From Christensenellaceae bacterium (GTDB lineage Bacteria; Bacillota; Clostridia; Christensenellales; CAG-138), in contig OY762936.1 of assembly GCA_963666935.1 (NCBI GenBank), positions 453,354 through 517,353 of the forward strand: a stretch of DNA of 64,000 nt, read 5' to 3'. Within the stretch, counting starts at the first letter, position 1. Every line of letters starts with the position of its first letter. The notes beneath the pieces are model-generated. The model was not told the origin of the DNA, did no database searches, and worked only from the letters and a program-made list of their open reading frames with translations. The translations under genes and the position numbers were made by a program. Below, piece by piece: positions 11,211 through 27,871 of the stretch.

Positions 11211-11597
11211 TTATAGCGCCACTACCTCCGCAAGCTGTTTGAGCACATCGGATACCCGGTCCCATAGCTCCGCATAATCTTTTTGCAAAGCCGCGATTTC
11301 TAACGGGTACACGCTGTAGGTATTGGCATGGATTGCAACCTGATTCAAGTTAGCGGCACACCTGCGTTGCAGAGAAACAAGCTCCCGGACAGGTGCAAGA
11401 TCGACATTCAGGACGTATCCGTTCAAGGCCATCTTGCGAATGTAGGCACTCATGTTTTGTGTTCCCGCTTCCTCCATGCGGCGCTGGACAGTGTCATACT
11501 CGTCCTGGCTGACCCATACATAAACGGATGAAGTCAACACCTTTTCGGGAATTATCCGGTGCGCTGACTGCGGGGCGGCAATGGCTTTTAACCGCAA
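11211..11597 (-). CDS. mobilisation protein MobC-like (orphan relaxosome accessory protein)
   Basis: Matches the MobC family pattern: an SAYIRKMALNG segment and a LQRRCAANLNQVAIHAN NLNQ-type motif. No relaxase gene is adjacent. Confidence 0.45.
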   Translation of the reverse strand: MRLKAIAAPQSAHRIIPEKVLTSSVYVWVSQDEYDTVQRRMEEAGTQNMSAYIRKMALNGYVLNVDLAPVRELVSLQRRCAANLNQVAIHANTYSVYPLEIAALQKDYAELWDRVSDVLKQLAEVVAL

Positions 11598-12201
11598 GGT
11601 GGAAAAGAGTGGCGTGGTACGGCGGTTTTACCGTTGCAGCCGCTACGCCAACAGCGGGAGCAAATCTTGCTCCATGCACACCATCGACGCGGATACGCTG
11701 GAAAACATCATCTTAGCGGACATCCAGTATTACACTCAGACGGCAATCGGCGACGAAAAGAAACTGTACGACAGGCTTTTATCCTTCTCTGGCCAAGAGT
11801 GTAAAAATAAAAAAGCCGCGCAGGAAAAAGCTCTGCGCGACACGACAAACCGTATTTCGTTCATTCAGGACGCCAGCAAACGGCTGTTCGAGGAAAAAAT
11901 TACGGGCAACGTGCCGGACAGTCTGTTTAAGAATATGCTTTCCGACTATGAGCGCGAGATAAACGAGCCTGAGGAACAGTCTGACAACATCAGGCGGCAG
12001 CTTCAGGATCAGGAAAGCAGCGAGAGCAACGTTCAGAAATGGATGGAACTGATTAGGGAATGCGTTTCCATTGACAGGCTCGACCGGGCCACGGCGTTCC
12101 AGCTTATTGATAACGTGGCCGTGCATGAGCAGACGGATAAAGACGGTCATAAAAGCCAGAGCATTCAGGTTAAATACAATTTTGTGGGATGTTTAAGCTG
12201 A
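11581..12201 (+). pseudogene. C-terminal fragment of a large serine recombinase (zinc-ribbon plus coiled-coil region only; catalytic resolvase domain absent)
   Basis: RFYRCSRYANSGSKSCSMHTIDADTLENIIL resembles the recombinase zinc beta-ribbon, followed by a long coiled coil. There is no upstream in-frame resolvase domain. It overlaps the MobC ORF on the opposite strand. Confidence 0.45.
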
Positions 12202-12227
12202 CCCATCCCAAAATTCTCTATAAAAAG

Positions 12228-12329
12228 CATTATGGGCCGCACCTTACGGCACGGCTCATAATGCAATGGCGGAGAACATGAGTATTTCATTATGAGCCGC
12301 AGGGGGCGCGGCTGAGCGGTCTATCATTT
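12228..12329. repeat. structured element D/E1: inverted repeat hairpin, degenerate tRNA-Ser 3' fragment (tggcggagaa) and conserved 42-bp motif attatgagccgcN6cgcggctgaRcggtYtatcattt
   Basis: Near-identical copy at 27920-27982. It lies 27 bp after the serine-recombinase fragment's stop codon. Confidence 0.5.
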
Positions 12330-13107
12330 ATCAATCCCAAGGTCTTAAAAATAACCATTTATCCTATCCCTATCCCCGATATTACCTGCTCCACAGGAGG
12401 GGCTTACATAGGCGAAATTATCCGAAAAAGACACCGGGAAGCTACAGAAAATCCGTCTATCTATCCATATCATCGTGACGGTCAGAAAGAAGGCCTCACT
12501 GTGCCACGAATGAGCAAAAAGCGGAAGCAGGAATAGGCCTTCTTTCTTAATCACCGCAACCGGATTACATACAACGACCTGTGCCGGAAATGCGTCCATG
12601 GCTGCAAGCAGAGTTTCCGGGCCGTGATTGTGGACTGCACGCGCTATATTTCCAAACGTGCAAAGATGCAGCAGATGTAACCCGCAGCATTAGCGAGTCG
12701 GAATCTGAAAACAGGAAATAGGTTCCCGGCCTTCTTTTTATCTGTCTGATAAAAGTCCTTGACAATTCGCTAAAACGCATGGCGTGATATTAAAAATCTA
12801 TCATGTTTAAGTTCACAGGCCTTTGGAAAAACGCTATTATGAATAGCGAATTATCCGAGCAAAGGCATGCAAAAAAAACAATTGAGAAGAAAGCTCTCGA
12901 ATACTTTTGGTTGGATAATTCCATAACACGAAACTGTGGCTGGTTTTACTGTGGCTATGGGGAAAGTGTAATCGTCCCCACCTGTCATCACGCATTCTGT
13001 CGTTCTGCGCTTCGTATACGCAAAGCTATTATCTGCGCATACCGTCACAATATAGCCCATAAACGCATAGCATATAACGGAAAACATGTTGAAGGAGACA
13101 ACCTGAT

Positions 13108-13653
13108 ATGTATGATAACAGACTGTACCTGCCTCAAACTGTCAGCGTACCAATGTCGCTGTACAAATCGAAGCAAGGTGAATATTTCGACGGCTATGCG
13201 GGAAAACTTCTTTTTACGGGCCCGGACATGAGCGCATGGGCGGGGCTTTTCAACCCGCCTGATTCACGGGTCAACCTGTTCATTAGCTCGTGGGCGGCCA
13301 CAAGTCTGTACAGCAATTTCCGCATTCAGGTATGGTTCAACCCGGTGCTGCCCGGCAGCCCTGACCTATCTGATAGAGTATCGACAACAAATTTCACGCT
13401 GAATCCACAGCCGAAGCCGAAGGTTCAGCTGCTGTATGCTTCCAACGTTAAAGGCAAACCCGAGGGTGGTATGGAGGCATTCTCATTTCGCGGAGGACCG
13501 CAGAACACGATATATGTGCAGGAAAACGGAAAGTTTATCTTCCCACCGGGCGGCTCATTCGCATTGGTTTTGGCGCACAAAGAGGAGCCTGATGCACGGG
13601 CAGAGGGGCGCATTGCCTTCGGTTGGTATGAGGAGCCGGTATGGAATTGTTGA
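13108..13653 (+). CDS. hypothetical protein
   Basis: RBS gaaggaga sits 8 nt upstream of the ATG. The ORF is 181 aa. I recognise no domain. Confidence 0.35.
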   Translation: MYDNRLYLPQTVSVPMSLYKSKQGEYFDGYAGKLLFTGPDMSAWAGLFNPPDSRVNLFISSWAATSLYSNFRIQVWFNPVLPGSPDLSDRVSTTNFTLNPQPKPKVQLLYASNVKGKPEGGMEAFSFRGGPQNTIYVQENGKFIFPPGGSFALVLAHKEEPDARAEGRIAFGWYEEPVWNC

Positions 13654-14122
13654 TGGAGCGGCCGCCATTTTGGGTGCCTTCCGGATCAGTATGAACGCGT
13701 TCGAAGGTCGAAGACCTCCCAGCACGAGCGAAATGCAGCAAAAATCTGTAAGGCATTAGACCAATAGGGTTTATGCCCTTTTATCATTCGGTTCTGTCCA
13801 CGCTTGAGAACACCGAGTCGGTGTTTTTCACGACAATCAATTGGTCTTGTGGAAAGTTATGCTATGCTTATCTGCTTTTCCATTGCAGAAAACGAGTCCG
13901 TTTCAAAAAAGTATGCTTTAAGAACGGATGCTTTTGGGCGTTATAAACTATTGCTACTGAATTTTTATTAATAAGTTAGATTATGCCACCAAATAAGAAT
14001 ATTCGCTATGTGTCAAGTAAACTGGCAAAAGAGATCGCATAAAAAAATGTGCAGAAGAAGCTTGCAGTATTTTATGTTGTTCAAAGCAAAGGGCATAGCA
14101 ATCCCTGAATACTCAGCAGCTT

Positions 14123-14902
14123 GTGTTGATTTACGAACAGGCAAGCAAAGTCATTTTCGCGAGCGACTTCATACCCAGGAACTCTTTAGTCCATGGCATA
14201 CCAGACAAAGCTTATTTGCGATTCAATCCGGCCAGTGTCTGCGCTCTCCCTCGTATAGAAAAGAAGAATATAAAGCCGTTGAATAAAGAACAAAGCGGAG
14301 CCTTCTTAAAGGCTATTAAAGGCTCTCGCTTCGAGACACTATTCACGCTTGACCTATTCACCGGTATGCGTGAAGGTGAAATACTGGGGCTTATGTGGGA
14401 ATGTGTTGATTTTACTAAAGGCACGATTTATATAAAGCAGCAGCTTCAGAGGGAACGCACGAAAAACGGTAAGTATTACTTTGCGCCTTTGAAAAACGAC
14501 AAGTCAAGAACCATTACTCCGGCTCCATGGATAATGAACCTTTTAAAAGAACATAAGAATAAACAAAAAAGCCACCGTCTTGCTGCAGGCGATACCTGGC
14601 AAGACAGCGGCTTAGTGTTCACAGATGAAATTGGCGGTCACTTTGCTATTCCCACGGTGTATAAGCACTTCAAGAACGCAGCGGCTGCAATTGGTTGCCC
14701 TTCAGCACGTTTTCATGACCTCCGGCATAGTTACACTGTCGCTGCAATCCGCTCTGGAGATGATATCAAGACAATTCAAGATAACCTCGGACATGCCACA
14801 GCTTCATTTACTTTAGACATTTACGGTCATGTTACTGATGAAATGAAAAAGGATAGCGCAGACCGCATGGAGGCATATATAAAGAGCGTAATAAACCGGT
14901 AA
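14123..14902 (+). pseudogene. tyrosine recombinase/phage integrase, N-terminally truncated (catalytic domain only)
   Basis: Catalytic-domain motifs are present: FHDLRHSYTVAAIRSG and LGHATASFTLDIYGHV, giving the R..H..R..Y tetrad region. The core-binding N-domain is missing. It is transcribed toward the adjacent tRNA-Ser fragments. Confidence 0.6.
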
Positions 14903-14966
14903 GGAAAAACTTTTATTTTAGAACGCAAAAATGCCCTGAATTCCGCAGAATTCAAGGCTTTTTTGA

Positions 14967-15500
14967 TGGCGGAGAAGGAGGGATTCGATTTCGGCCATCG
15001 GCAGGCCGAGCTTGCACTTCGTACTGCGCTCGTCGCGCCTGGCACGAAATCCCGGCCTCTAAAAACGCTTCACCGGAGCGTTTTCTTAACGTGGCTTCGA
15101 ATCCCACTCAACAACAGGCACAAAAAAAAACCCGTCTTAAAAACGGGCTCTTCTTTGTGGCGGAGAAGGAGGGATTCGAACCCGCATACAGCCATATTTA
15201 TGCGTATTTTTGCGTTATTTACCGTATGGATATTTGGCTAAAAACAGGCTTTTTTTACTTCGCCCGTGTCATTCAATACAACTGATTGATAAGGGGTAAG
15301 GGGTAAAATAAGGGGTAGAAAATGCGCCCTTCAACTAAACTTTTCTGAAGTAGTTTATCTCCCTATTCTTAATTCTTCGTCTGGCCTAATAGCTTCTTGG
15401 TGCAATCTTCTTTGCTTCGTCTATGCTTCAGATTACTTTAGTTCATGCTTTGTTCAATTTAATACTTACTTCCATAGCAGCCCTTTCTATGATGGGAACT
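14967..15500. repeat. 535-bp direct repeat R1 (copy 2 at 21791-22325), containing two tRNA-Ser 3'-end fragments
   Basis: Nearly identical to 21791-22325, with a few substitutions near the ends. Contains tggcggagaaggagggattcga at 14967-14988 and tggcggagaaggagggattcgaaccc at 15158-15183. Also contains a minus-strand terminator (cccgtttttaagacggg plus T9) and a triple aagggg-ta repeat at 15281-15311. ORFs predicted inside are translation artefacts. Confidence 0.8.
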
Positions 15501-15605
15501 ATGACCTGCCAGTTTCTCCATTAAATGCTGACGACGATTTTGTCCAATCTAATTATGGCGTTATTATTTGCGCTAATCTTCATGATGAACGTAGGTTGCT
15601 TTTTA

Positions 15606-17105
15606 TTAAGAAAACACAAATCCGCGCTCTCGAAATAACTTTATACAAGCATCAACCACTTTACCGTCATATTTTACCCCTCGGTGCATAGCAATCTCAT
15701 TGATTGCTGCATCAATACCCAAAGCTGGCCGGTACGGGCGATGTGACATCATTGCTTCAACAACATCTGCGACAGCCAATATCCTACTTTCAGTAATTAT
15801 TTGGTCTGCTTTCAGTTTCTGAGGATAGCCGCTACCATCCAGTCTCTCATGATGCTGATAAATCATCTCGATAATCTGCTGAGGAAAGTCAATTTCTTTG
15901 ACTATTTCATAGCTATATTCAACGTGACCCTGCAATATTTGATATTCCAGGTTGGATATTTTGCCAGGCTTGTTGAGAATGTCAGAAGGGATGTGAACTT
16001 TACCAATATCATGAATAAGCGCGCCAATCGATATATTATATATGACATCATCCGGTAGTTTCATTTCTTTGGCAATCGCACAAGACAATAACGCTACTCT
16101 CTTTTGATGTCCTGCAGTATATGCATCCTTCAGCTCTCCAATTTTTGATATTGTATTGATTGTTTGCTGCAACCTAAGAAGAAGTTTTTCATTTTTCCTC
16201 GCAAGTTCCTCTGACAGCACATGCAGGTTTTGACTTAACTGTGCAAGATTTTCCGCTGCAAGTTTGCGTTCCGAGATATCAATGCAAAAGGCAAGAATGC
16301 AGTTGTCATCAATTTTTGTACCAAAAAGGTCTATCCAATAATCTTTACTATCTTTTTTTCTAACTAAATATTCTGCAGATAAAATTCCTTTGTCTATAAG
16401 TTCATGAAAATCTGCAAGCCCTTTTTCAATTTGATCAGTTGCAAGGAAATCAGCCACAGATAGGCCTAATACCTCTTTCTTTGTACGCCCCATCATCCGG
16501 CATCCCATTTCATTTACATCAATATATCGGCCTAGAGCGTTAGTCACAAAAACTCCGATTGGGGCCTTTTTGATGTAAGATTTGAAGATATCTTCACTTC
16601 TTCTTAACTTGATTTCAAGCTTTTTCCGTTCGCTAATCTCTTGTTTCAGTTCGCTTGTGCGGTGTTCCACCAACAATTCAAGCTGATCTTTTCGATTGCT
16701 GACAAGTATGTTTCTCTCTTTGATTTTTGCCATTGCAATTAATTGTGTTATTAATACCATGTCATCTATTGGTTTGAAAAGAAATGCCTCTGCTCCTGCT
16801 TCAAAAGCTTTTAGCCGGAGTTGCTGGTCGTCTTCTAAGTCAGTAATAAATAACATTGGAGTAAACTGTAGGCTTTGCTCTTTCTTTAAAATCTGACTTA
16901 TTTTCAAACCATCAGCTTTACTCATAGATATATCAAGCAAAATAACATCAGGGTCATGGTCTTTTGCATATTTTATGCATTGTAATATTTTTGAGGTAAT
17001 GTCAATTTTTGCTCCAGGAAGCGCTTTGGAAATAGTTTCCGCCAAACTTTTTGAATTAGTTATACTATCGCCTAGAATTATAATTTTTAGGTTTCTTTCC
17101 TCCAT
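15606..17105 (-). CDS. response regulator with REC, PAS and HD-GYP (c-di-GMP phosphodiesterase) domains
   Basis: REC motif DVILLDISMSKADGLKI is present. The HD-GYP signature HDIGK ... HHERLDGSGYP is present. RBS ggaggaaagaaat precedes the ATG at 17105. Confidence 0.7.
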   Translation of the reverse strand: MEERNLKIIILGDSITNSKSLAETISKALPGAKIDITSKILQCIKYAKDHDPDVILLDISMSKADGLKISQILKKEQSLQFTPMLFITDLEDDQQLRLKAFEAGAEAFLFKPIDDMVLITQLIAMAKIKERNILVSNRKDQLELLVEHRTSELKQEISERKKLEIKLRRSEDIFKSYIKKAPIGVFVTNALGRYIDVNEMGCRMMGRTKKEVLGLSVADFLATDQIEKGLADFHELIDKGILSAEYLVRKKDSKDYWIDLFGTKIDDNCILAFCIDISERKLAAENLAQLSQNLHVLSEELARKNEKLLLRLQQTINTISKIGELKDAYTAGHQKRVALLSCAIAKEMKLPDDVIYNISIGALIHDIGKVHIPSDILNKPGKISNLEYQILQGHVEYSYEIVKEIDFPQQIIEMIYQHHERLDGSGYPQKLKADQIITESRILAVADVVEAMMSHRPYRPALGIDAAINEIAMHRGVKYDGKVVDACIKLFRERGFVFS

Positions 17106-17195
17106 ATTTCTTTCCTCCAATAATATTTTCCATACCAAGGTGTTGCAAATATAACTTATCACGTTAATCCCACCATAAACATTTGAAAAATCACC

Positions 17196-17408
17196 TCAGC
17201 CACAAAACATACGAGCAACATCGAAAGAACAGGCTTCTGGCTGCGCTTCCATCGCATCTGCCATGGTCTTAAGTTCTTCTAAGTTAATCGTTTCACGCTT
17301 CAGCTTTTTACCGAAGGCCTGCGGCGACTGACCTAACCGTCTAGCCAACTCGGAGACACTGATATTCATCTGTTCACATAGCTGTCGTATCATGTCCGAG
17401 GTTTTCAT
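17196..17408 (-). CDS. XRE-family helix-turn-helix transcriptional regulator
   Basis: MIRQLCEQMNISVSELARRLGQSPQAFGKK is a Cro/C1-type HTH. RBS ggaggaactatt precedes the ATG at 17408. It sits directly upstream of, and is co-oriented with, the HD-GYP gene. Confidence 0.6.
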   Translation of the reverse strand: MKTSDMIRQLCEQMNISVSELARRLGQSPQAFGKKLKRETINLEELKTMADAMEAQPEACSFDVARMFCG

Positions 17409-17592
17409 AATAGTTCCTCCATGTATCAATAAAAACATTATAAATCATTTGGCTAAACAATAATAGCGTGGGCGGCCTTCGCGGGGTGGTTTTTCCACCC
17501 CTCCGCAAAGCGATATATATTGGGCTTTTCCCGATGGGCGTTATTTTCCTCGATCTCAATAAATCCATGCGAAACCAGTTCATTTACCACTT

Positions 17593-18676
17593 TTGCGAAC
17601 CCACCACGTTCTCAAGCAAATTGGCGTGGAAGGGTCCGAAGAAGGCTTAACCACAATCGCCAATACCATATCAGACGCGCTTATAATGGGGGATAAGTCT
17701 GCCATCAATCTCTCTACCCCGAACTACATGGCGCAGGGCATAAACGAACAAGAGGCTGCCAGAAAAGCGTATACCGACGCGGTCAACGGTCTGGCTCTTG
17801 ACACTCTCGGCAGTATGGTATCGGACAGCTTTGCGGGTTCTTTTGGTTCGGCACAGGGCAGGACAAACAACACTGCGCAGGACACAACACAGCCAGTTCA
17901 ACAGGATACGCGCCCTGTACAGCCCATTCACCAAGTTCAGCCAGAAGTGGTACAGCCCGTACAGCCCGTTCCACAGACGATACAGCCAATGGAAATCGCG
18001 CAACCGAATATGGCAGCACAATTCATTGAAACCGCGATTGAAACGGATGGAGCCGAAAATACCCCGGCAATGCAAGAAACCATATGGCAATATCCTGGTA
18101 ATGTTGATCGCGGACTGGTAGATTATGTGAAACAGTCTGCCTCTTCCGAATCCAACTCACTAAAACCCTATGAACTCAATACGGTAAGTGATCGGGCCGC
18201 ATCTGATATCAGAAACAAGTTGAACACATACTGAAACGACACGGCCGAAACGGATTGGCAGATCAAAGTATGTCTGACGTTAATAATATCGGTCGGATTC
18301 AGTATGCGCTTGATAATTACGATGCCGTAGAAGACGGCGGCCGAGTCACCGGATATTCAGAAAGAATCCCCGGGAAAGATCAAAACAGAACTGCCAGAAG
18401 CATCAAGTATTCAAGAAAATTGATGGCACTATGTATGTTGTTGAGGCTGTGCCGGATACCACAAAAAAGACAGTCTATGTAGTTTCTGCATACATAAATA
18501 AAAGAGGATCGTCTTCGCTCCCCAGCTCAAATACGGGGGTGATTACCGAAAACGACGAACTGTTTTTTAATCTCAACCTTAGCTGTGTGGATACTTCTGT
18601 GGCACGTACAGGGCGAAAAGGATATATTTGCACTCGCGAAGCGATTCTCCTGTCGGTAGACAAGGAAACCTTTTAA
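17593..18676 (+). pseudogene. frameshifted remnant ORFs, possibly the C-terminal part of a large polyvalent/conjugative-element protein
   Basis: Three overlapping ORFs in different frames (17593-18234, 18255-18482, 18431-18676). There is no proper ATG or RBS. A Q/P-rich linker is present. Confidence 0.25.
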
Positions 18677-18706
18677 TCCACGACCCCGTCCCCACGGTTA
18701 GCTTGT

Positions 18707-21079
18707 TCAGGTTAGTGAAGTGTCAGCCTGTTCCCGCAACAAATCGGCAAACTGTTCCGGCACAATAGGTCTGCTAAAGTGGAACCCCTGCATCTCGTCA
18801 CAGGACTGATCCTTTAGGTAGTTCATTTGTTCTATTGTTTCGACACCTTCGGCCACAACTGTTAAACCTAAGGTTTCACCCATGGCAATGATAGCATGGG
18901 TAATCGCCTTGTCTTCAGCGTTTTCCGGGACATTACGGATAAATGAACGGTCAATCTTTAGCGTATCAATGGGGAAATGCTTGAGCTGGGCAAGAGATGA
19001 GTATCCTGTACCAAAATCATCAATGGCCAGTCGCACTCCTATACTTTTAATTCTAACTAACACATCCATCATTTTCGTAGGGTTAGTCATTATCATGCTT
19101 TCGGTAATTTCCAATTCCAATAGATTTGGTGCCATACCGGAATCGTTTAGAGCGGCTTTTATATCATCTATCAGATTGTTATCTGCAAGTTGTCGTAATG
19201 ACAAATTTACCGCCATACAGACAGCTGGAAGCCCCTGCTTTTGCCATGCAACGTTTTGAGCGCATGCTGTCTTCAATACCCACTTACCAATTGACACTAT
19301 CATTCCTGTTTCTTCAGCCACTGGGATGAATTGCGTGGGAGTCACTGAACCAAGGTGTGGATTTTGCCAGCGAAGGAGTGCTTCCACGCCGGTTATGATG
19401 CCTGTTTTGAAATTCACTTTTGCTTGATAATGTAAAGAAAGCTCATTTCGTTCAAGCGCAAGCCGTAGATTTGTCTCAATAGCCAAACGTCCTGCTGATT
19501 GCAACTGAATATCTTCGGAGTAAAATTGAAAGTTGTTTTTGCCTTCTTCTTTGGCATAATACATAGCCATATCCGCATGTTTCATCAGTAGTTGTTCGTC
19601 TTCGCCATCCTGAGGGTATATGCTTATGCCAATGCTGGCAGTTACTCGGCATTCGTCACCCAGCAGAACTATTGGTTTATAAGTGCTGGCAAGAATATTA
19701 TTAGCTACAAGTTCTAAATCACTCAACTTGTTAAAGTCCTCAATCAAAATAATAAATTCATCTCCACCCTGACGGCTGACAACATCCTCTGCGCGTAGTG
19801 TTTGCTTATATCGCATGGCAATCTCTTGCAGCAGTTGATCTCCTGCCTCGTGACCCTTAGTGTCGTTGATTATCTTGAAACGGTCAAGGTCAATGAAGAA
19901 AACTGCTAATTTCCGTTTGTGACGTTTCGCAGTCTGGATCGAATGGTTAAGAATTTGGGAAAGCATCAATCGGTTGGGCAACCCCGTCAGGCTATCATGT
20001 GTGGCGAGATATTGAATCTTTCCCTCGGCGATTTTATATTCGGTAACATCTTTGGATGCGAGGACAAATCCTATCCGGGTATTATAATTATCGCTGCATT
20101 CGGAAATTGATAGAATTATTGGAATATTCACACCTGCGCTAGAAACCATGAACGTTTCCACATTCCGTATAGGACATGAGTTCAGCAATTCGGAAATGCT
20201 TGTATTGGTTGATTCGCCATCCGAGAGGAAGAGTCTTCCCAGCGGTTCTCCACCCAATTCCTTTTGGGTGTATCCCAGCAGCCTTTGCGTTTCCGGATTA
20301 ATACTTAATATGATTCCTTTTTGATCTGTAAGAATTACAGAATCGATGATTGTCTGAAATAAATTCTCTGCAATTAAAGATGGTGACAGTGTCATTAATT
20401 TATATTTTATAATAGCATATAAAATTCCCAGTTGCCAGATCATCATTCCTGCTGCAATCATATCCGGGATTTCGGCTTTGATGATTATATTTGCACACAC
20501 ATTATACCCCATGGTAAACAAAAAGGAAGTTGCGCCCGAAAAAAATATTATTTTAGTCTGTTTTCGTTCCCTTGTTGAGGTAGCTCTTCTTAGCACAGAA
20601 TAACATAAGTACATGTTTATTGTCCCTAAGATTCCTATGAAAATCATTAAAATCCAATACCATGCTGACGCTGCATTAGCAACTAATCTCCATCCGTATT
20701 GATTATAAATCACATCACTAAAGTATAAATTTTGTTTTATTGCCTGAAATATAAAAATAATTGCGGGCAAATAAAGCACAATGTAAATCCACCATTTTTT
20801 TAAAATGTTATCCTTTTTCGTATATACAAGAAGAAAGTGAAGAGCAAGGCTCGAAAATGTGCAAAATCCAATAGACGCTATCGTATTCCAAATGATACAA
20901 CTGGCTTTATCAGGCATGATTATTGAAACAGCGGTAGCAAACGACCATATAAAAAGACTTAGATTAAGCACAAAATACGTCCTGTTTAATGCTGCTTTTC
21001 TGTCCTTGAAGAGCATAACAACGCCCATAGTAAGATAAATAATACTAAATAAAAACAATAACTGTGAAAAAAAGTTCAT
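18707..21079 (-). CDS. membrane sensor diguanylate cyclase/phosphodiesterase (multi-TM N-domain, PAS, GGDEF, EAL)
   Basis: About 8 N-terminal TM helices. GGDEF motif RQGGDEFIIL is present. EAL motifs EALLRW and DDFGTGYSSL are present. RBS ggag sits 8 nt upstream of the ATG. Confidence 0.75.
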   Translation of the reverse strand: MNFFSQLLFLFSIIYLTMGVVMLFKDRKAALNRTYFVLNLSLFIWSFATAVSIIMPDKASCIIWNTIASIGFCTFSSLALHFLLVYTKKDNILKKWWIYIVLYLPAIIFIFQAIKQNLYFSDVIYNQYGWRLVANAASAWYWILMIFIGILGTINMYLCYSVLRRATSTRERKQTKIIFFSGATSFLFTMGYNVCANIIIKAEIPDMIAAGMMIWQLGILYAIIKYKLMTLSPSLIAENLFQTIIDSVILTDQKGIILSINPETQRLLGYTQKELGGEPLGRLFLSDGESTNTSISELLNSCPIRNVETFMVSSAGVNIPIILSISECSDNYNTRIGFVLASKDVTEYKIAEGKIQYLATHDSLTGLPNRLMLSQILNHSIQTAKRHKRKLAVFFIDLDRFKIINDTKGHEAGDQLLQEIAMRYKQTLRAEDVVSRQGGDEFIILIEDFNKLSDLELVANNILASTYKPIVLLGDECRVTASIGISIYPQDGEDEQLLMKHADMAMYYAKEEGKNNFQFYSEDIQLQSAGRLAIETNLRLALERNELSLHYQAKVNFKTGIITGVEALLRWQNPHLGSVTPTQFIPVAEETGMIVSIGKWVLKTACAQNVAWQKQGLPAVCMAVNLSLRQLADNNLIDDIKAALNDSGMAPNLLELEITESMIMTNPTKMMDVLVRIKSIGVRLAIDDFGTGYSSLAQLKHFPIDTLKIDRSFIRNVPENAEDKAITHAIIAMGETLGLTVVAEGVETIEQMNYLKDQSCDEMQGFHFSRPIVPEQFADLLREQADTSLT

Positions 21080-21203
21080 GGTTTACTCCACTTCTTAATT
21101 AATGCCATATTTCGCTTTGTTAATAAGATATAGAACATTTCCGTTCATGGGTGGATCCGTTAATTTTTACATTGTCTGCTTACCTATTATAATACCACTT
21201 TTG

Positions 21204-21401
21204 CTAATTAAATTCCATAAGTTGTGCTGCAGTGTGGAAAGCGGCGGCAAATGACCAGATGATAAGGCTCAAATTGAGAGTAAAGAAAAGTCTGTTTTGC
21301 ATCGACCGCTTATCCAGAAGAATAACCTTGAATCCCAATAAAACATACAAAACAGAAAGAATCGTCAGTATAAGCGAGAATATATTCATATTGCCTTGCA
21401 T
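21204..21401 (-). pseudogene. 5' fragment paralogous to the N-terminus of the GGDEF-EAL sensor gene
   Basis: The 65-aa ORF aligns with the first ~55 aa of ORF 18707-21079 (FTLNLSLIIWSFAAA vs FVLNLSLFIWSFATA). It is truncated near repeat R2. Confidence 0.4.
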
Positions 21402-21790
21402 GATATACGCATAGCAAGAGCTCGTGTAATCATGCGCTCCTTTCTGTGATTTTTGTTATAGTTAAAATAGTCACTATGGACTGTTAATAGCTTGGCTATT
21501 TGCTATTTTCTGCTTAAACTGGGTTATAATGGCATGCGTCTAATGACTTATTAATTTATTTCATTTCGATAAGGCACATGATATCAAAATTATTCCATAT
21601 TAATATTATACTAGTAATATAAATTAATCAATGTTATTTGTGGCTTTGCATGTCTTCGTGCCTGTGTTAGATATGCCCGGCGCAAACAGCCAGAAAGTCT
21701 AGTATTACAGGCTTTTTGCCCGCAGACGCAACAAATCCCGCCTCTTAACGAAGCGGGATTTATTGTATCAACGATTAGTGATGATATGCT

Positions 21791-22325
21791 TGGCGGAGAA
21801 GGAGGGATTCGATTTCGGCCATCGGCAGGCCGAGCTTGCACTTCGTACTGCGCTCGTCGCGCCTGGCACGAAATCCCGGCCTCTAAAAACGCTTCACCGG
21901 AGCGTTTTCTTAACGTGGCTTCGAATCCCACTCAACAACAGGCACAAAAAAAAACCCGTCTTAAAAACGGGCTCTTCTTTGTGGCGGAGAAGGAGGGATT
22001 CGAACCCGCATACAGCCATATTTATGCGTATTTTTGCGTTATTTACCGTATGGATATTTGGCTAAAAACAGGCTTTTTTCACTTCGTCCGTGTCATTCAG
22101 TATAACTGATTGATAAGGGGTAAGGGGTAAAATAAGGGGTAGAAAATATGCCCCCCAACTAAACTTTTCTGAAGCAGTTTATCTCCCTATTTTTAATTCT
22201 TCGTCTGGCCTAATAACTTCTTGGTGCACTCTTCTTTGCTTCGTCTATGCTTCAGATTACTTTAGTTCATCCTTTGTTCAATTTAATATTTACTTTCAAA
22301 GCAGCTCACTGGTAATGGGAACTAA
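21791..22325. repeat. 535-bp direct repeat R2 (copy of 14967-15500), with tRNA-Ser 3' fragments at 21791-21812 and 21982-22007
   Basis: Nearly identical to R1. Copy offset is about 6824 bp. Confidence 0.8.
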
Positions 22326-22674
22326 AAAAATACTCCGGCTACCGATTAAGACTATGCTTGCACTAAAAGTTACCGAATAAATAATGCCGTCTATAAAAGA
22401 ATGCATCCCAATGCCTACTAACGCGGTTATGCCAAAAGCCAGATCGGGTTGTTTCGTTTTATATTTTATAAATTTATTACTAAAGAACATGAACATAAAA
22501 CCTGCTAAGGCAGCCAGACCCGCGTTGGGATTTTTTTATGGCTTGGGGAAAAGCCATAACTAGAGGAGCGGAAATTAAAACGCCAGCCGCGAAACATATA
22601 AAATGCTCCTTAGCTCTTTCTGCCCAAACTCTATTTCTATAAACAAACAAAATTCCAAGGCTATTTACTATCAT
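22296..22674 (-). pseudogene. ZIP-family (ZupT-like) metal transporter, frameshifted
   Basis: Two adjacent ORFs in different frames. The HSFIDGI motif resembles the ZIP TM4 HSxxEG signature. A T-homopolymer lies at the junction (~22530). Confidence 0.3.
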
Positions 22675-22747
22675 TGCACTTAATGCAAAAGTCGCAATCC
22701 ATGTGAATGTACTAAATGTTGGCCTTTTCTTATCTCCTTTTAACTGG

Positions 22748-23944
22748 TCAATTTTTTAAAGGTGAATTAATTGTTAGGCCAAGTTTTTTAAGCGCTATTT
22801 CAGGAGTCTCTTTATCTGTGACAATTATTTCAATATTTGAGTCAGAAAAAACATAGGCCGGTCCTTTACTGCTAAAGTCTTTTTTGAGTAGGACTAGATC
22901 AACCATATTCCTTACCAGAAATTCTGCTGCTAATATTCCTTTGCTTTTTTCAATTTTACAAAAGGGATTGTCAATAATCTCTGTCTTATTAGAGGCCTTG
23001 TCTCCAGCCTTAAATGTTACAAGCATAAAATATAATGCTTCCCCAAAATGAGCACTGATCGAAGCTTGATCATCTGTCAACGGTATGGCATAAATGATTT
23101 CTTCCTTTTGTAGTGGCTCATAATGGATAAGTATCCGGTCTATGTTCTTGATTTCAACTTTGATATGGTCCTCTATTTTATCTACAAGGTAATGAGCTTT
23201 GTCTAAGTCGTGCGTTTTGATAATTAAACTTGCTTCAATAAACTTAAACCGTCCTGAATTACGGCCTGTTAGGGATTTCAGCTCGATTACTTGAGGTGTA
23301 TCTACAATGATCTTTTCCACCTTGCTAAGTGTTTTATAATCTAAGGAAGCGTCCAAAAGGACTCGGATCCCATCCAGTAATATTTCCAGTCCAGTCTTTG
23401 CAATAAATCCAACAACAATGAAAGCCGCTACCTTATCAAATTGATATCCCAGTATGTTGGCAATTATTGCTGCCAAAACAGCTGTATTGCTTAACACGTC
23501 CGTACGGATATGAGCAGCGTCAGCTAATAACATGGGCGAATTTATTTTTTTCCCAATTTTTTTCTCATATCTGGAAAACCAGAAGGTGATCACCATTGCA
23601 ACGACTACACTAAGTATTGCAAGCCAAGAATTTTGCAGTGTTCCCGAACTTTTTGTCATAACCTCCCGCACAATCTCATAACCCGTGTAGAGGATAATTA
23701 AGGAAATTAAAACAGACATTAAATTTTCAACCTTATAGAGGCCATATGGAAATCTCTTGGTTTTGCGTTTTGCAATCTTCAATCCTACAAAAACAGTTGA
23801 AGATGCAACAAAATCCGCAAAGCTGTGAAATGCTTCAGCTTTTAATGCAATACTGCCAGACGCAGATGCAGCCAAATATTTTACGCCAAATAAAAGAAAA
23901 TTAATAGCCATCGATAGCAGTGCCGTTCTTTCGCTTATCTCCAT
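22748..23944 (-). CDS. cation diffusion facilitator (CDF) transporter fused to a C-terminal NifX/NafY-like (dinitrogenase FeMo-cofactor-binding fold) domain
   Basis: CDF HxxxD motifs are present in two TM helices (HSFADFVAS and AAHIRTDVLSN). C-terminal ISAHFGEALYFMLVTF matches the PF02579-type FG..A..F core. Confidence 0.6.
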   Translation of the reverse strand: MEISERTALLSMAINFLLFGVKYLAASASGSIALKAEAFHSFADFVASSTVFVGLKIAKRKTKRFPYGLYKVENLMSVLISLIILYTGYEIVREVMTKSSGTLQNSWLAILSVVVAMVITFWFSRYEKKIGKKINSPMLLADAAHIRTDVLSNTAVLAAIIANILGYQFDKVAAFIVVGFIAKTGLEILLDGIRVLLDASLDYKTLSKVEKIIVDTPQVIELKSLTGRNSGRFKFIEASLIIKTHDLDKAHYLVDKIEDHIKVEIKNIDRILIHYEPLQKEEIIYAIPLTDDQASISAHFGEALYFMLVTFKAGDKASNKTEIIDNPFCKIEKSKGILAAEFLVRNMVDLVLLKKDFSSKGPAYVFSDSNIEIIVTDKETPEIALKKLGLTINSPLKN

Positions 23945-24247
23945 AAAATCACACCCTTTCAAAAACATTGATTATCTATAAATCATTTTAACCTATAGGT
24001 ATCATATCCCTTATAATTTATCGCAACCACCCCGCTGTCTTTTTTCAGATCATCTAAAATTACATTGATATTGTTACAGCTTCTCGACTTTAGAAATCCT
24101 TCAATTTCGAACTGGTTCATAGGATGACGCTTTATAATGCTCACGATTCTGTAATTTGTCGATCTTTTGCAAGGCCGGCAAAAGGTGTCCCAAAATCCGG
24201 CATTTCGTTTACCTCCTTAATTCTTACTCGCTGTAGACCTTAACCTA

Positions 24248-24922
24248 TTATTTCTTTTCTTTATTAAAGCATAAGAACCAATCAAGGCAATATTTATTTT
24301 CATCTTGGTTTTCCATTCTCTCCTTGGCAACTCCACATGATCCAGGTGTTGGAATAATCGTATCATCTCCCGGCCTCCAGTTGGCTGGTGTGGCAACTGA
24401 ATCTTTATCGGCCTTTTGTAAAGCAAGTATTATTCTCTTGATTTCATCAAAATTACGCCCACAGGATGCCGGGTAGTATAGGATAGTTCGAATAACCGCC
24501 TTTGGGTCGATGACAAATACTGCACGCACTGCCTGAGTGGTAGACTGAGATTGGATCATTCCATATTTATTGGCTACTTCCATTTTGATATCTTCAATTA
24601 AAGGGAATTTCACTTCAACTTTCTCCAGGCCATTCCATTTTAACTCCTGTATCTTTCTGAGCCATGCTATGTGCGCATAAAGTGAGTCTACTGAAAGTCC
24701 GATAAGCTCTGTATTCAATGCTTTGAAGTCTTCTGCCATTGACGCAAAAGTCATAAATTCAGTGGTACAAACTGGTGTAAAATCGGCTGGGTGAGAAAAC
24801 AAGATCACCCATTTACCTTTGAAGTCATCAGGAAAATTGATTGCGCCTTGCGTTGTTACTGCTTTAAACGCTGGCGCCAAGTCCCCAATTAATGGCATTC
24901 TATTTACATTCATTTCTTCCAT
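24248..24922 (-). CDS. 1-Cys peroxiredoxin (Prx6-like, AhpC/TSA family)
   Basis: FTPVCTTE peroxidatic-Cys motif is present. RBS aaggagg sits 8 nt upstream of the ATG at 24922. Confidence 0.75.
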   Translation of the reverse strand: MEEMNVNRMPLIGDLAPAFKAVTTQGAINFPDDFKGKWVILFSHPADFTPVCTTEFMTFASMAEDFKALNTELIGLSVDSLYAHIAWLRKIQELKWNGLEKVEVKFPLIEDIKMEVANKYGMIQSQSTTQAVRAVFVIDPKAVIRTILYYPASCGRNFDEIKRIILALQKADKDSVATPANWRPGDDTIIPTPGSCGVAKERMENQDENKYCLDWFLCFNKEKK

Positions 24923-25042
24923 GATTATTACCTCCTTTAATTTTATAAAAAAATATGGTATTTGCCCAAAAGAGATACATACACCGTTTTCCATTGTTTT
25001 GTCATCTACTAGCATTGCTATTTTTATTAGGTATCCTCCTCC

Positions 25043-25387
25043 TTATCGTATTGTTCTTCTTCCACAACCATGCATCCGCTCAATTTCGTTGTAAAGTTTA
25101 TAATCTCCGCCTTCAATCTTAAGAACGTTCCCATTAACTAAGGACTCGGCGATCTTACTTCGTGCATCCCTGTAAATATTTTGAACAGTAGCACGTGCAA
25201 CCTGCATCTTTTCAGCACATTCTTCCTGAGTCAAACCTTCAAGATCTATAAGGCGGATAGCTTCATACTCTTCAACTGTCATCATAATAATTTCGTTTTC
25301 TATATCTGATCCATTAAGCGGTCCATATAGGTTGCTCTTTGGCAGGCAACATACTTTTCTCCATTTTCTTGGTCTTGACATTACCAA
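25043..25387 (-). CDS. DUF134 (UPF0251) family putative DNA-binding regulator
   Basis: N-terminal [10 protein letters not shown] and a central HTH-like segment [28 protein letters not shown] are present. RBS gaggtg precedes the ATG. Confidence 0.55.
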
Positions 25388-25429
25388 TTCACCTCATTCA
25401 AGCAACATAAGTAACAGGGGTATCCCCTG

Positions 25430-25726
25430 TCACTTATTAACCTCTGGCATATTTTCTAATTGTCTACTAACAATATCTAGCCTTTTTTGAAGTAACTCTT
25501 TTTGCTCTGTAAGAATCTCTTTGTCAGTTAACACAACAGTTTCTCCAGCAAAAGATCTTCCAAATCCTCGTAGGCATCCATAGCCCGCTCCCCGACCTAA
25601 TCCTCTGCCACTTACTCGACCAAATCCAGCGCCATATCCGCCTACATTAGCTCCATTGCAAACTCCTGAGACTCTTCCGCTCATTGCTCCACGACCCATT
25701 GGGCCTGTTCCATCTCTTCCTGGCAT
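25430..25726 (-). CDS. Gly/Arg-rich small protein (DUF5320-like) with C-terminal coiled coil
   Basis: N-terminal MPGRDGTGPMGRG followed by GRG/GYG repeats containing Cys. C-terminal helical KEILTEQKELLQKRLDIVSRQLENM. Confidence 0.45.
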   Translation of the reverse strand: MPGRDGTGPMGRGAMSGRVSGVCNGANVGGYGAGFGRVSGRGLGRGAGYGCLRGFGRSFAGETVVLTDKEILTEQKELLQKRLDIVSRQLENMPEVNK

Positions 25727-25749
25727 AGTATCTTTTCCTTTCGATTTGA

Positions 25750-25986
25750 TTATGTTCTAATCATTGTCGTACCGCATTTTGGGCACTTCATACTTGCACA
25801 AGGTTCCGCACGTAGATGTTTTACTTTTTCACCACAGTTTGGGCATTCACAATAACCTTCTGGACCTGCACTTGCAGGACCTCCCATTTTTCCTCTACCA
25901 GCTGCTGTTCCAGTTTGTCTGCCTATACCGGCACCTCTGCCTGCTCCAGCTGGGCCTGTTCCGTCTCTTCTTAACATATCTACCAC
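25750..25986 (-). CDS. Gly/Arg-rich small protein (DUF5320-like N-terminus) with C-terminal CxxC...CxxC zinc ribbon
   Basis: N-terminal MLRRDGTGPAGAGRGAGIGR. C-terminal CECPNCGEKVKH...CPKCGTTM. RBS aggaggtg precedes the ATG. Confidence 0.45.
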   Translation of the reverse strand: MVDMLRRDGTGPAGAGRGAGIGRQTGTAAGRGKMGGPASAGPEGYCECPNCGEKVKHLRAEPCASMKCPKCGTTMIRT

Positions 25987-26023
25987 CTCCTAATGGTTTT
26001 TGGCATATGCTATTTATAATTTC

Positions 26024-26051
26024 ATTATAGACTGTTTTTGGCATATGTCAA
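26024..26051 (-). promoter_or_regulatory. near-consensus sigma-A promoter (TTGACA-16-TATAAT) for the DUF5320/DUF134/Prx/CDF operon, bracketed by direct-repeat putative operator catatgccaaaaac x2
   Basis: On the minus strand: ggttaTTGACAtatgccaaaaacagtcTATAATgaaattataaatagcatatgccaaaaacc, then RBS aggaggtg and the ATG at 25986. Confidence 0.5.
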
Positions 26052-26244
26052 TAACCGTTTTGGAATAAGCAAAATGAAACAGAGCCGGCACTCAAGGAAT
26101 TATTTCCTCTAGAGACGGCCAGTTTTGTACAGGTGATACTGTATTAAGGACTATTCGTCATTAACTTCTGCGAGCTGTGGCCGCTGATCGATTGTCAGTA
26201 CCACGCCTTCACTCTCTAATGCATATCCGATCAATTGGAAATAG

Positions 26245-26290
26245 CGATTTAACTGCAACAAAGAGCAATTAAAATCTATAAGGAGTATTT
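26245..26290. repeat. 46-bp direct repeat (copy 1) cgatttaactgcaacaaagagcaattaaaatctataaggRgtattt with internal imperfect palindrome TTAACTGC-N8-GCAATTAA
   Basis: Second copy at 27826-27871. The two copies flank the patatin gene. Confidence 0.7.
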
Positions 26291-26479
26291 ACCTTTATTA
26301 AACAAAAAAAAAGACTACCAAACATGGCAATCAAAATATTTTAATGCAAAAATTCAATAGTTTAGCTTAATAATATACCACCAGAAACCAATTCATAATA
26401 ACAATACAACTTTCTACAATAATATTATGAATCTATTTTCGAATTTGCTTTGATAAGCCTCTGCTGATGAACTATCTCT

Positions 26480-27825: not shown

Positions 27826-27871
27826 ACGATTTAACTGCAACAAAGAGCAATTAAAATCTATAAGGGGTATT
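27826..27871. repeat. 46-bp direct repeat (copy 2) of 26245-26290
   Basis: Identical except for one substitution. Confidence 0.7.

What the first reader, a model, noticed from the sequence alone, without database searches (positions are those of the whole stretch)
12228..12329. Conserved about 42-bp structured motif fused to tRNA-fragment copies at 12267-12329 and 27920-27982, one copy 27 bp after a serine-recombinase gene fragment
Both copies read tggYggagaa...attatgagccgc-N6-cgcggctgaRcggtYtatcattt. They contain an internal inverted repeat (agccgc/gcggct) around a variable 6-nt centre, like a serine-recombinase att site. The 12228 copy is additionally preceded by a 12-bp-stem hairpin. Large serine recombinase genes sit at element termini next to their att sites. 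The two copies are in direct orientation and could delimit a 15.7 kb composite element (12.3-28.0 kb) superimposed on the tRNA-integrase array.
Basis: inference. Interest (0 to 1): 0.5.

Follow-up and report, generated by a model that had tools for sequence, protein, structure and literature searches.

The report
Serine-recombinase element ends at tRNA-Ser
The repeated motif is the conserved outer end of a family of small mobile elements that use a large serine recombinase to insert at the 3' end of a serine tRNA gene in gut and sludge Clostridia. The window holds two decayed left ends and one decayed right end of such elements inside an 18.8 kb pile-up of insertions, which is ordinary mobile-element anatomy.

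Summary
Two copies (12267-12345, 27920-27998; 77% over 79 nt) each start with a tRNA-Ser(GCU) 3' end copy, and none is expected by chance.

- **Native flank.** In relatives, the "recombinase fragment" plus 13-bp hairpin lies directly beside an intact tRNA-Ser(GCU). Window 12277-31055 is therefore an inserted tandem array.
- **Full-length recombinase.** 546-aa TnpX-like recombinases, 80% identical to the fragment, sit in the same place with the same hairpin.
- **Left end of the element.** A near-identical element, which carries a relaxase, begins with TGGCGGAGAA plus the motif.
- **What the motif is.** It is the tRNA-distal arm of these elements.
- **The 48-bp site.** The motif's 12-mer CATTATGAGCCG is the exact inverted copy of the hairpin's right arm, 24 bp away. 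The AA midpoint of this attP-like site is where tRNA homology stops.

- The two copies are both left ends, so they do not bound a 15.7 kb element.
- The adjacent recombinase remnant belongs to an older neighbouring element.

I file this as a new member of a known kind. Binding of the 12-mers and the crossover position are inferred.

The parts
11524..12201 (+). 3' remnant of a TnpX-like large serine recombinase gene (ORF 11581-12201; homology to relatives starts at 11524). It is the right end of an old, decayed element.
   Evidence: Pfam Zn_ribbon_recom + DUF4368, no Resolvase domain. 80% aa identity over 225 aa to the C-terminus of the full-length 546-aa recombinase of L074. blastn block 11524-12276 is 93.5% identical to L047, 80% to L074 and 77% to L049.
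12227..12264 (.). P' hairpin between the recombinase gene and the tRNA 3' end: 13-bp stem (12227-12239 / 12252-12264). Its right arm, 12252-12263 CGGCTCATAATG, is the P' 12-mer.
   Evidence: Present at the same place after truncated and full-length recombinase genes in L047, L049, L067, L073, L074 and L084. 94.9% of cells paired, and 3 of 13 pairs carry compensating changes. On the minus strand it is followed by TTTTTA.
12267..12276 (-). Core TGGCGGAGAA: a copy of the last 10 nt of tRNA-Ser(GCU), left behind at the far end of the insertion array. The AA at 12275-12276 is the centre of symmetry and the proposed crossover.
   Evidence: Homology to the empty-site relatives stops at 12276 and resumes at 31055.
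12277..12299 (.). P half-site of copy 1: an 11-nt inner part plus the 12-mer CATTATGAGCCG (12288-12299). The 12-mer is the exact inverted copy of 12252-12263, 24 bp away.
   Evidence: 12/12 inverted match. The 12-mer occurs only at these att-related places in the window, apart from one 1-mismatch hit at 23113-23125.
12300..12345 (.). Conserved accessory box of copy 1 (C-N6-CGCGGCTGAGCGGTCTATCATTT...).
   Evidence: Aligned with 8 other copies, and with an inverted copy in the leader of the full-length recombinase gene. No compensating changes.
27920..27998 (.). Copy 2: core TGGTGGAGAA (27920-27929), inner 11 nt, 12-mer CATTATGAGCCG (27941-27952) and box (27953-27998). It is the left-end relic of a second insertion. 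No P' 12-mer lies on its left.
   Evidence: left 12-mer matches 2/12.
12277..31055 (.). Tandem array of inserted, mostly integrase-less modules between the old element's P' end and the tRNA. It holds five more tRNA-Ser 3' fragments (14967, 15158, 21791, 21982, 27920).
   Evidence: Absent from L047, L049, L073 and L084, where the hairpin abuts the intact tRNA. Fragments, gene content.
31056..31148 (-). Intact tRNA-Ser(GCU), the target gene. Its 3' end, 31056-31065, is the live core.
   Evidence: ARAGORN and Rfam.

Best explanation
The motif is the tRNA-distal terminal sequence (the 'P' arm) of a family of integrative mobilizable elements. An intact member is about 14 kb and carries a relaxase gene. 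These elements encode a 546-aa TnpX-like large serine recombinase and insert at the 3' end of tRNA-Ser(GCU) in Oscillospiraceae (Caproiciproducens and relatives).

**Layout of an integrated element (window + strand).** [older flank] - TGGCGGAG-AA - 11 nt - CATTATGAGCCG - ~45-nt conserved box - cargo - recombinase gene - hairpin whose right arm is CGGCTCATAATG - 3 nt - TGGCGGAG-AA - tRNA body.

**Proposed excised form.** In the circle the two ends would join into a 48-bp symmetric attP: 12-mer, 11 nt, AA, 11 nt, inverted 12-mer. A recombinase dimer would bind this site and exchange strands at the central AA (or the overlapping GA) with the same dinucleotide in the tRNA gene. The P' side brings its own copy of the last 8 nt of the tRNA plus a hairpin, so the tRNA stays intact.

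**Why arrays build up.** The left half of the target seems not to matter: three unrelated left flanks are seen. A new element can therefore insert next to a resident one, and arrays accumulate.

**What the window holds.**
- (a) 11524-12266: the 5'-truncated recombinase gene plus hairpin of an old element.
- (b) Copy 1: the left end of a later element, inserted right beside (a). This recreates an attP-like P'-AA-P junction.
- (c) Copy 2: the left end of another such element deeper in the array. Its right part has been lost.

**Shown versus inferred.** Shown by comparison: the synteny, the empty sites, the full-length recombinase at the same position, the motif at the left end, the inverted 12-mers and where homology breaks. 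Inferred: that the recombinase binds the 12-mers, the exact crossover dinucleotide, and any role for the box.
For: 1. **The block is native flank.** In L047/L048 (91% protein identity), L049 (77%) and L073, the recombinase remnant plus the same hairpin is followed directly by intact tRNA-Ser(GCU) and tRNA-Ser(UGA). blastn places window 11524-12276 and 31055-31149 next to each other in L047.
2. **Three states in one species.** In genomes sharing the identical remnant protein P0130, the site is empty in L073, filled by one motif-led element in L071/L072 and filled by a different one in L070.
3. **Full-length recombinases in the same place.** Relatives of 546 aa carry Resolvase, Recombinase, Zn_ribbon_recom and DUF4368. 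P0167 has the motif AIYLRLSRDDQ, and its best solved match is the TnpX catalytic domain at 2e-29. They end with the same C-terminus and are followed by the same hairpin. Next comes the intact tRNA in L084 (Caproiciproducens sp. R2) or a tRNA fragment in L074-L083.
4. **The motif is the left end.** L074:1-2539 is 99.7% identical to L070:13000-15538, and in L070 that element begins with TGGCGGAGAA plus the motif. L074 lists a relaxase and no tyrosine integrase within the element.
5. **Decayed elements keep both ends.** L049 has the motif 3.9 kb upstream of the remnant gene. L070-L073 have a partial motif 380 nt upstream of it.
6. **Inverted 12-mers.** The match is 12/12 in window copy 1. For L074's P' arm (TGGCTCATAATG) against its own left end (CATTATGAGCCA) it is also 12/12, with both outer bases changed together relative to the window. 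The spacing is 24 bp in all four P'-P junctions. tRNA homology ends right after the central AA in 5 of 7 junctions.
7. **Tandem insertion is documented.** It is described for large serine recombinases at ssrA in Dehalococcoides and for SCC elements (PMC3146451), and at tRNA 3' ends in Faecalibacterium (PMC12084326).
Against: - No single fetched locus shows one intact element with both ends. The left end of the intact element is inferred from a 99.7% identical overlap (L070 with L074).
- In L084 no left end was found within 10 kb.
- Neither window module that starts with the motif still has a serine recombinase or a P' hairpin at its right end. Module A ends with a tyrosine-integrase remnant. 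Module B ends with a different kind of terminator arm.
- Canonical large serine integrases do not recombine attP with attL, so side-by-side insertion needs a relaxed left half-site. That is assumed here, not shown.
- The 11-nt inner parts of the two half-sites are not symmetric.
- The function of the ~45-nt box is unknown.
Confidence: 0.75

Rival explanations
1. The two copies are the attL/attR pair of one 15.7 kb composite element mobilised by the adjacent serine recombinase, with the palindrome agccgc-N6-gcggct as the crossover site.
For: The two copies are direct repeats, and a serine-recombinase gene remnant ends 65 nt before copy 1.
Against: - Both copies are the same type of end. attL and attR of a serine-recombinase element should be different hybrids.
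- The recombinase remnant and hairpin are native flank of the intact tRNA in four other genomes.
- The whole span 12277-31055 is the insertion, not 12.3-28.0 kb.
- The span between the copies contains four further tRNA fragments and unrelated modules.
- The palindrome is imperfect in 4 of 7 copies, its spacer is 6 or 7 nt, and no change is compensated.
Confidence: 0.03
2. The motif is the P arm of elements that use a tyrosine integrase, such as the family of the remnant at 14123-14902. The repeated 12-mers would be arm-type integrase binding sites.
For: Module A (12277-14966) has the motif at one end and a tyrosine-integrase remnant facing a tRNA fragment at the other. Full-length homologues of that integrase lie directly next to the tRNA-Ser(GCU)/(UGA) pair in L041 and L045.
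Against: - Junctions of those prophage-type integrases carry 23-27-nt tRNA cores reaching the T-loop (L044, window 14967 and 15158). Motif junctions break after 10 nt.
- Three pattern scans of 2.9 million viral contigs found no motif.
- The intact motif-family element in L074 lists no tyrosine integrase.
- The site's symmetry and its centre fit a serine recombinase.
Confidence: 0.1
3. The conserved segment is a gene product of its own. Candidates are a small minus-strand RNA ending in a tRNA-Ser-like 3' tail, or a mini-ORF (plus strand MSRxxRG*; minus strand MI-RSAA..AAHN).
For: - On the minus strand the small hairpin stays paired in 97.6% of cells through G-U pairs.
- Every copy is followed, in the minus direction, by a terminator-like hairpin.
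- A Shine-Dalgarno-like GGAGG precedes the plus-strand ATG.
Against: - No Rfam match, and folding energy is not better than shuffles in 5 of 6 folds.
- No compensating pair changes.
- No promoter-like site found.
- Most substitutions are non-synonymous in both frames. There are 1-nt indels between copies, an in-frame stop in the minus frame of the L049 copy, and a plus-frame stop that is lost there.
- The downstream terminators are explained by history: each fragment was once the end of a live tRNA gene.
Confidence: 0.07

Closest known systems
Tn4451/Tn4453 (TnpX) and Tn5397 (TndX): clostridial mobilizable or conjugative elements with DUF4368-type large serine recombinases
   Same: Same recombinase architecture (Resolvase, Recombinase, Zn ribbon, DUF4368). 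The best solved-structure match of P0167 is the TnpX catalytic domain. The recombinase gene sits at the element end. The elements are mobilizable, with a relaxase and no conjugation pore. Recombination occurs at a 2-bp identity (review PMC5704250).
   Different: Tn4451 has low target specificity, and serine-recombinase IMEs usually insert inside and disrupt protein genes (PMC5704250). This family targets one site, the 3' end of tRNA-Ser(GCU), and restores the tRNA end. That behaviour is usually seen with tyrosine integrases.
Dehalococcoides ssrA-specific genomic islands (DsiB large serine recombinase)
   Same: A ~540-aa serine recombinase gene lies next to the 3' end of a small stable-RNA gene. 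A short direct repeat of that 3' end marks the far boundary. Tandem arrays of islands form, many without an integration module. There are conserved sequences around the repeats (PMC3146451).
   Different: The target there is tmRNA rather than a tRNA, and the phylum differs. That system has a second small recombinase (DsiA) and a six-gene integration module, and a 20-bp repeat against 10 bp here. Relatedness of DsiB to this family was not tested.
SCCmec / SCC composite islands (CcrAB, CcrC)
   Same: Large serine recombinases insert at the 3' end of one conserved gene without inactivating it. New elements can insert beside resident ones, giving tandem composites separated by repeated att sequences. 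This is from my own knowledge and as cited in PMC3146451.
   Different: The target there is a protein gene (rlmH/orfX). Two recombinases are usual. There is no sequence relation to the att sites here.
Accretion and cis-mobilizable elements (CIMEs) at tRNA 3' ends in Firmicutes, including the Faecalibacterium tandems
   Same: Arrays of integrase-less remnants separated by att repeats next to a tRNA gene. The tRNA-Ser 3' end is named as a known specific integration site in Oscillospiraceae (PMC12084326).
   Different: The classical cases use tyrosine integrases. The cited paper's text does not state which integrase type serves tRNA-Ser, and its tables were not available.

Membership tests
Large serine recombinase (the element's integrase) | N-terminal resolvase catalytic domain with nucleophile serine, followed by Recombinase domain, zinc ribbon and coiled-coil/C-terminal extension | tested here: met
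   Full-length relatives P0163-P0280 carry PF00239, PF07508, PF13408 and PF14287. P0167 has AIYLRLSRDDQ at residues 14-24. TnpX catalytic domain matches at E 2e-29 and SPbeta SprA at E 1e-17. The window's own copy lacks the catalytic and Recombinase domains, so it is a remnant.
Large serine recombinase attP site | About 40-50 bp site with imperfect dyad symmetry around a central 2-bp crossover, lying close to the recombinase gene | tested here: met
   12-bp perfect inverted repeats separated by 24 bp (48 bp in all) in window copy 1 and in the L074+L070a reconstruction. The spacing is constant in 4 junctions, and the site lies 50-65 nt after the recombinase stop codon. The inner 11 nt are not symmetric.
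Large serine recombinase attP site | Strand exchange at the central dinucleotide, which is identical in attP and attB | not testable with these tools
   Only indirect evidence. Homology with the tRNA ends right after the central AA in 5 of 7 junctions. Any position inside TGGCGGAGAA is formally possible.
Integrative mobilizable element (IME) | Own integration module plus relaxase/oriT, with no conjugation pore genes | tested here: met
   L074 has PF03432 Relaxase at 4135-5211 and the recombinase at 10001-11641, with no VirB4/T4SS families among the called genes. This holds for the intact relative only. The window's modules have neither gene.
Integrative mobilizable element (IME) | Excision to a circle and transfer | not testable with these tools
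   Indirect only. The same element (99.7% identity) appears in two different samples, and occupied and empty sites occur in genomes sharing an identical flank protein.
   Both copies carry the P-type half on the same side. Only copy 1 has a P'-type half on its left. The unit absent from relatives is 12277-31055.
Structured RNA / conserved hairpin (the 'structured motif' itself) | Base pairs kept through compensating changes; match to a curated RNA family | tested here: not met
   0 of 6 pairs have changes on both sides. No Rfam hit at E up to 10 over copy 1, and only chance-level hits near copy 2. z-scores range from -2.2 to +1.0.

The most novel reading that the evidence does not exclude
The ~45-nt box beside the att half-site may be more than passive end sequence. 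It recurs, inverted, in the leader of the full-length recombinase gene (L074 9934-9979, L084 9933-9978). In the excised circle the recombinase gene and attP would then be bracketed by two inverted boxes. The box could be an operator, or the start of a short outward transcript that runs through the tRNA-like 3' tail into the old tRNA terminator. Either would tie recombinase expression to whether the element is integrated or excised.

A related possibility is that the many retained recombinase C-terminal remnants (zinc ribbon plus coiled coil) still bind the 12-mers and influence which incoming elements can land at the tRNA.
Probability: 0.12. Interest if true: 0.5.

Novelty: new member of a known kind. 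Interest (0 to 1): 0.3.

Why it matters
- **Reading the locus.** The work turns an unexplained repeat into a readable map. It separates the old flank from later insertions and shows that the tRNA-Ser(GCU) 3' end in this group of Clostridia is used by at least two integration systems, which have piled up 18.8 kb of cargo.
- **A less usual target.** Serine-recombinase mobilizable elements are usually described as inserting inside protein genes. A family that targets a tRNA 3' end and rebuilds it is less usual.
- **A testable att pair.** The comparison gives a concrete predicted attP/attB pair (48-bp attP; tRNA-Ser 3' end as attB) for a TnpX-like recombinase. This could be tested directly, and such recombinases are of interest as DNA-integration tools.
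- **Overall.** It remains ordinary mobile-element biology.

Tried and rejected
**Motif searches.**
- Pattern scans of genome contigs, metagenome contigs and viral contigs with three patterns gave one true hit, L001.
- All other hits were chance matches in coding DNA, or an unrelated phage repeat.
- These scans need exact patterns, so divergent copies were missed. The other copies were found only through the recombinase protein.

**RNA hypothesis.** There is no Rfam family, no better-than-shuffle folding and no covariation in the small palindrome.

**Coding hypothesis.** I examined both frames by eye. I rejected it because of non-synonymous changes, 1-nt indels and stops.

**Promoter and terminator scans.** Nothing was found at either copy.

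**First working model.** I initially took the motif to be the P arm shared by two related tyrosine-integrase islands.
- The 29725-30918 ORF turned out to be a clostripain-like peptidase, not an integrase.
- The two modules share nothing except the motif.
- Cargo of the motif-led elements elsewhere shares nothing with the window's modules.

**Other dead ends.**
- Exact-protein look-ups of window proteins found nothing. The source genome is not in that index.
- The 621-aa recombinase in L067-L069 is only 20-23% identical and has no hairpin or tRNA after it, so it belongs to a different element.
- The apparent finding that all homologues of the fragment are truncated reflects that search's candidate selection. 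Full-length relatives at 80% identity exist.

Full report
**1. The observation**

None is expected by chance. The conserved stretch is longer than reported: 12267-12345 against 27920-27998, 77% identical over 79 nt.

Both copies start with the reverse complement of a tRNA-Ser 3' end. The window carries intact tRNA-Ser(GCU) at 31056-31148(-) and tRNA-Ser(UGA) at 31182-31270(-). Copy 2 shares 19 nt with the GCU gene, with one mismatch. Copy 1 shares only TGGCGGAGAA.

Four more fragments of the same tRNA end lie at 14967, 15158, 21791 and 21982.

ORF 11581-12201 is the C-terminal part of a large serine recombinase: zinc ribbon plus DUF4368, with no catalytic domain. The hairpin before copy 1 has a 13-bp stem (12227-12239 / 12252-12264).

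**2. The host**

To the right of the tRNAs lie argS, serS, addB and addA at about 55% G+C. Relatives found later are Oscillospiraceae, Ruminococcaceae and Caproiciproducens. The window is therefore from a Clostridia genome, where DUF4368-type recombinases are at home.

**3. The motif is rare, not a generic repeat**

Exact-pattern scans of the species-genome collection, the JGI metagenomes and IMG/VR gave one real extra copy, L001 (an Oscillospiraceae MAG). There too the motif starts at TGGCGGAGAA.

I found no Rfam family, no unusual folding energy and no shared flanking gene.

**4. The decisive comparison**

Homologues of the recombinase fragment led to contigs in which the same gene remnant and the same hairpin are followed directly by intact tRNA-Ser(GCU) and tRNA-Ser(UGA). 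These are L047/L048, L049 and L073.

blastn shows L047 10136-10888 = window 11524-12276 (93.5%) and L047 10878-10970 = window 31055-31149. Three conclusions follow:
- Window 12277-31055 (18.8 kb) is inserted DNA.
- TGGCGGAGAA is the duplicated core.
- The "recombinase fragment + hairpin" is the resident flank of the tRNA, not part of an element bounded by the two motif copies.

Genomes that share the identical remnant protein P0130 show three states of this site:

| Locus | State of the site |
|---|---|
| L073 | empty |
| L071/L072 | filled by one motif-led element |
| L070 | filled by a different motif-led element |

L067-L069 show another motif-led insertion. In all of these the motif follows hairpin-TGGCGGAGAA exactly as in window copy 1.

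**5. The element family**

I searched with a longer remnant (P0157) and found many full-length 546-aa recombinases carrying Resolvase, Recombinase, Zn ribbon and DUF4368. P0167 has the catalytic motif AIYLRLSRDDQ, and its best solved match is the TnpX catalytic domain. Its C-terminus is 80% identical to the window fragment.

In L074-L083 and in Caproiciproducens sp. R2 (L084), the full-length gene is followed by the same hairpin. After that comes the tRNA-Ser 3' end: an intact tRNA in L084, and a 27-nt fragment followed by a tyrosine-integrase prophage in L074.

The L074 element carries a relaxase, regulators, a radical-SAM gene and a SEC-C protein, and no tyrosine integrase. Its first 2.5 kb are 99.7% identical to L070:13000-15538. 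In L070 that element starts with TGGCGGAGAA plus the motif. The intact element is therefore about 14 kb, with the motif at its tRNA-distal end and recombinase-hairpin at its tRNA-proximal end.

Decayed elements keep both ends. L049 has the motif 3.9 kb upstream of the remnant gene. L070-L073 have a partial motif 380 nt upstream.

**6. Anatomy of the site**

The hairpin's right arm is a 12-mer (CGGCTCATAATG in the window) ending 3 nt before TGGCGGAGAA. The motif contains its exact inverted copy (CATTATGAGCCG) starting 11 nt after it. The layout is 12-mer, 24-bp spacer, 12-mer, 48 bp in all.

- The spacing is 24 bp in all four P'-P junctions.
- In the L074 element both 12-mers carry the matching variant (TGGCTCATAATG / CATTATGAGCCA), again 12/12.
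- The midpoint of the spacer is the AA that ends TGGCGGAGAA.
- In 5 of 7 junctions the similarity to the local tRNA stops right after that AA.

This is the shape expected of a large-serine-recombinase attP, with crossover at the central dinucleotide (general knowledge of these enzymes; 2-bp exchange for Tn4451 is cited in PMC5704250). From my own memory, TnpX and TndX use a GA dinucleotide. GA overlaps the AA here, and I cannot tell the two apart.

The P' hairpin is a conserved structure: 94.9% of cells are paired and 3 of 13 pairs carry compensating changes. It probably ends both the recombinase transcript and the tRNA transcript, since it is followed by TTTTTA on the minus strand. That role is inferred.

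**7.

The inverted repeat agccgc/gcggct lies outside the 48-bp site. Across seven copies its left arm carries uncompensated G-to-A changes, the spacer is 6 or 7 nt, and no pair changes on both sides.

The right part (GCGGCTTATCGGCTTATCATTTGCC in the consensus) is the best-conserved block. It recurs, inverted and with a 6-nt insertion, 22-67 nt upstream of the full-length recombinase start codon in L074 and L084. Its role is unknown. A regulatory site is my guess.

I tested coding and rejected it, because of indels that are not multiples of three, stops and mostly non-synonymous changes.

**8. Reading the window**

| Coordinates | Interpretation |
|---|---|
| 11524-12266 | Right end of an old element whose recombinase gene lost its 5' part |
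| 12267-12345 (copy 1) | Left end of a later element that landed beside it, giving a P'-AA-P junction that looks like attP |
| ...-14966 | Rest of that module, replaced by a prophage-type tyrosine-integrase remnant (14123-14902) |
| 15184-21790 | Integrase-less module using a second type of junction, with a 23-26-nt core |
| 22008-27919 | Second integrase-less module of the same junction type |
| 27920-27998 (copy 2) | Left end of another motif-type element, followed by only 3.1 kb (FG-GAP protein, clostripain-like peptidase) |

Full-length relatives of the 14123-14902 integrase also sit next to this tRNA pair.

Different lineages keep remnants of different length (137-360 aa) but always keep the 3' end and hairpin. 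This fits the idea that this end supplies the last 8 nt and the terminator of a needed tRNA. That idea is inferred.

**9. Comparison with known systems**

The recombinase is a TnpX-like large serine recombinase, and the intact relative qualifies as an integrative mobilizable element. Three features are all documented elsewhere:
- Targeting the 3' end of a small RNA gene with a serine recombinase.
- Tandem accumulation of elements.
- Many integrase-less modules within the arrays.

The closest parallels are the Dehalococcoides ssrA islands (PMC3146451) and, in principle, SCC elements. The Firmicutes literature describes tandem "accretion" and names the tRNA-Ser 3' end as an integration site in Faecalibacterium (PMC12084326). 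The IME review states that serine-recombinase IMEs typically disrupt protein genes (PMC5704250), so a tRNA-restoring family is a less common flavour.

I file it as a new member of a known kind.

**10. Verdict**

Confidence in the main explanation is about 0.75. The weakest links are that no single fetched locus shows one intact element with both ends, and that binding and the crossover position are inferred.

Noticed in passing
window 14967-15266 and 21791-22090; also 30928-31055: A 300-nt block is duplicated at 99% identity. Each copy holds two tRNA-Ser(GCU) 3' fragments (23 and 26 nt) 191 nt apart. The DNA between them is homologous to the stretch just downstream of the intact tRNA. This looks like a second family of att junctions, with longer cores, bounding the two modules 15184-21790 and 22008-27919.
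   Followed up: partly
window 15184-27919: Two integrase-less cargo modules. The first carries an HD-GYP response regulator and a GGDEF-EAL protein. The second carries a cation-efflux/FeMo-cofactor-domain fusion, a 1-Cys peroxiredoxin, DUF134 and patatin. Both are low in G+C (36-46%) against about 55% for the core genome.
   Followed up: partly
window 14123-14902 (+): Tyrosine integrase remnant of 259 aa. Homologues are about 395 aa and have an N-terminal SAM-like domain. Full-length homologues are prophage or satellite integrases lying directly beside the same tRNA-Ser pair (L041, L045). The tRNA is therefore shared by tyrosine- and serine-recombinase elements.
   Followed up: yes
L074 9934-9979 (-), L084 9933-9978 (-): An inverted copy of the motif's right-hand box (GCGGCTTAT...GCTTATCATTTGC, with a 6-nt insertion) lies in the leader of the full-length recombinase gene, 22-67 nt before its start codon.
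   Followed up: partly
L049 6200-6260, L071 10770-10830, L070 15630-15680 and 9620-9680: A subset of motif copies share about 60 further conserved nucleotides. These include a second hairpin with a compensating change (GCCGCCC...GGGCGGC versus GCCACCC...GGGTGGC). The window's two copies lack this extension.
   Followed up: no
proteins P0121-P0162; window 11524-12201: Dozens of 5'-truncated remnants of this recombinase gene, of different lengths (137-360 aa), exist in different genomes. The eight loci I fetched (L047-L049, L067, L070-L073) keep the 3' end and hairpin; the tRNA follows directly in four and a motif-led insertion intervenes in the others. Either repeated decay is constrained by the adjacent tRNA, or the zinc-ribbon/coiled-coil fragment has kept a function.
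   Followed up: partly
L067 6397-15106 (same in L068, L069): After a motif copy lies a different element with ParB, ArdA, a TraG/VirD4-like fragment and a 621-aa large serine recombinase. That recombinase is only 20-23% identical to the tRNA-Ser family, and no hairpin or tRNA follows it.
   Followed up: partly
L050-L066 (IMG/VR contigs): An unrelated, highly conserved ~100-nt repeat (...CCACTCGCGGCTGACCTGAGTATCATTTAGTG...) occurs one to three times per contig in 17 viral contigs. It was picked up by chance with one of the motif patterns.
   Followed up: no
window 26242-26290 and 27824-27872: A 49-nt direct repeat at 96% identity flanks the patatin gene region. The second copy lies just left of motif copy 2.
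   Followed up: no
window 2264-3004 and 28634-29561: Two coding repeat arrays: glycine-rich GGN repeats in ORF 2082-3110, and seven 147-nt FG-GAP repeats in ORF 28576-29631.
   Followed up: no
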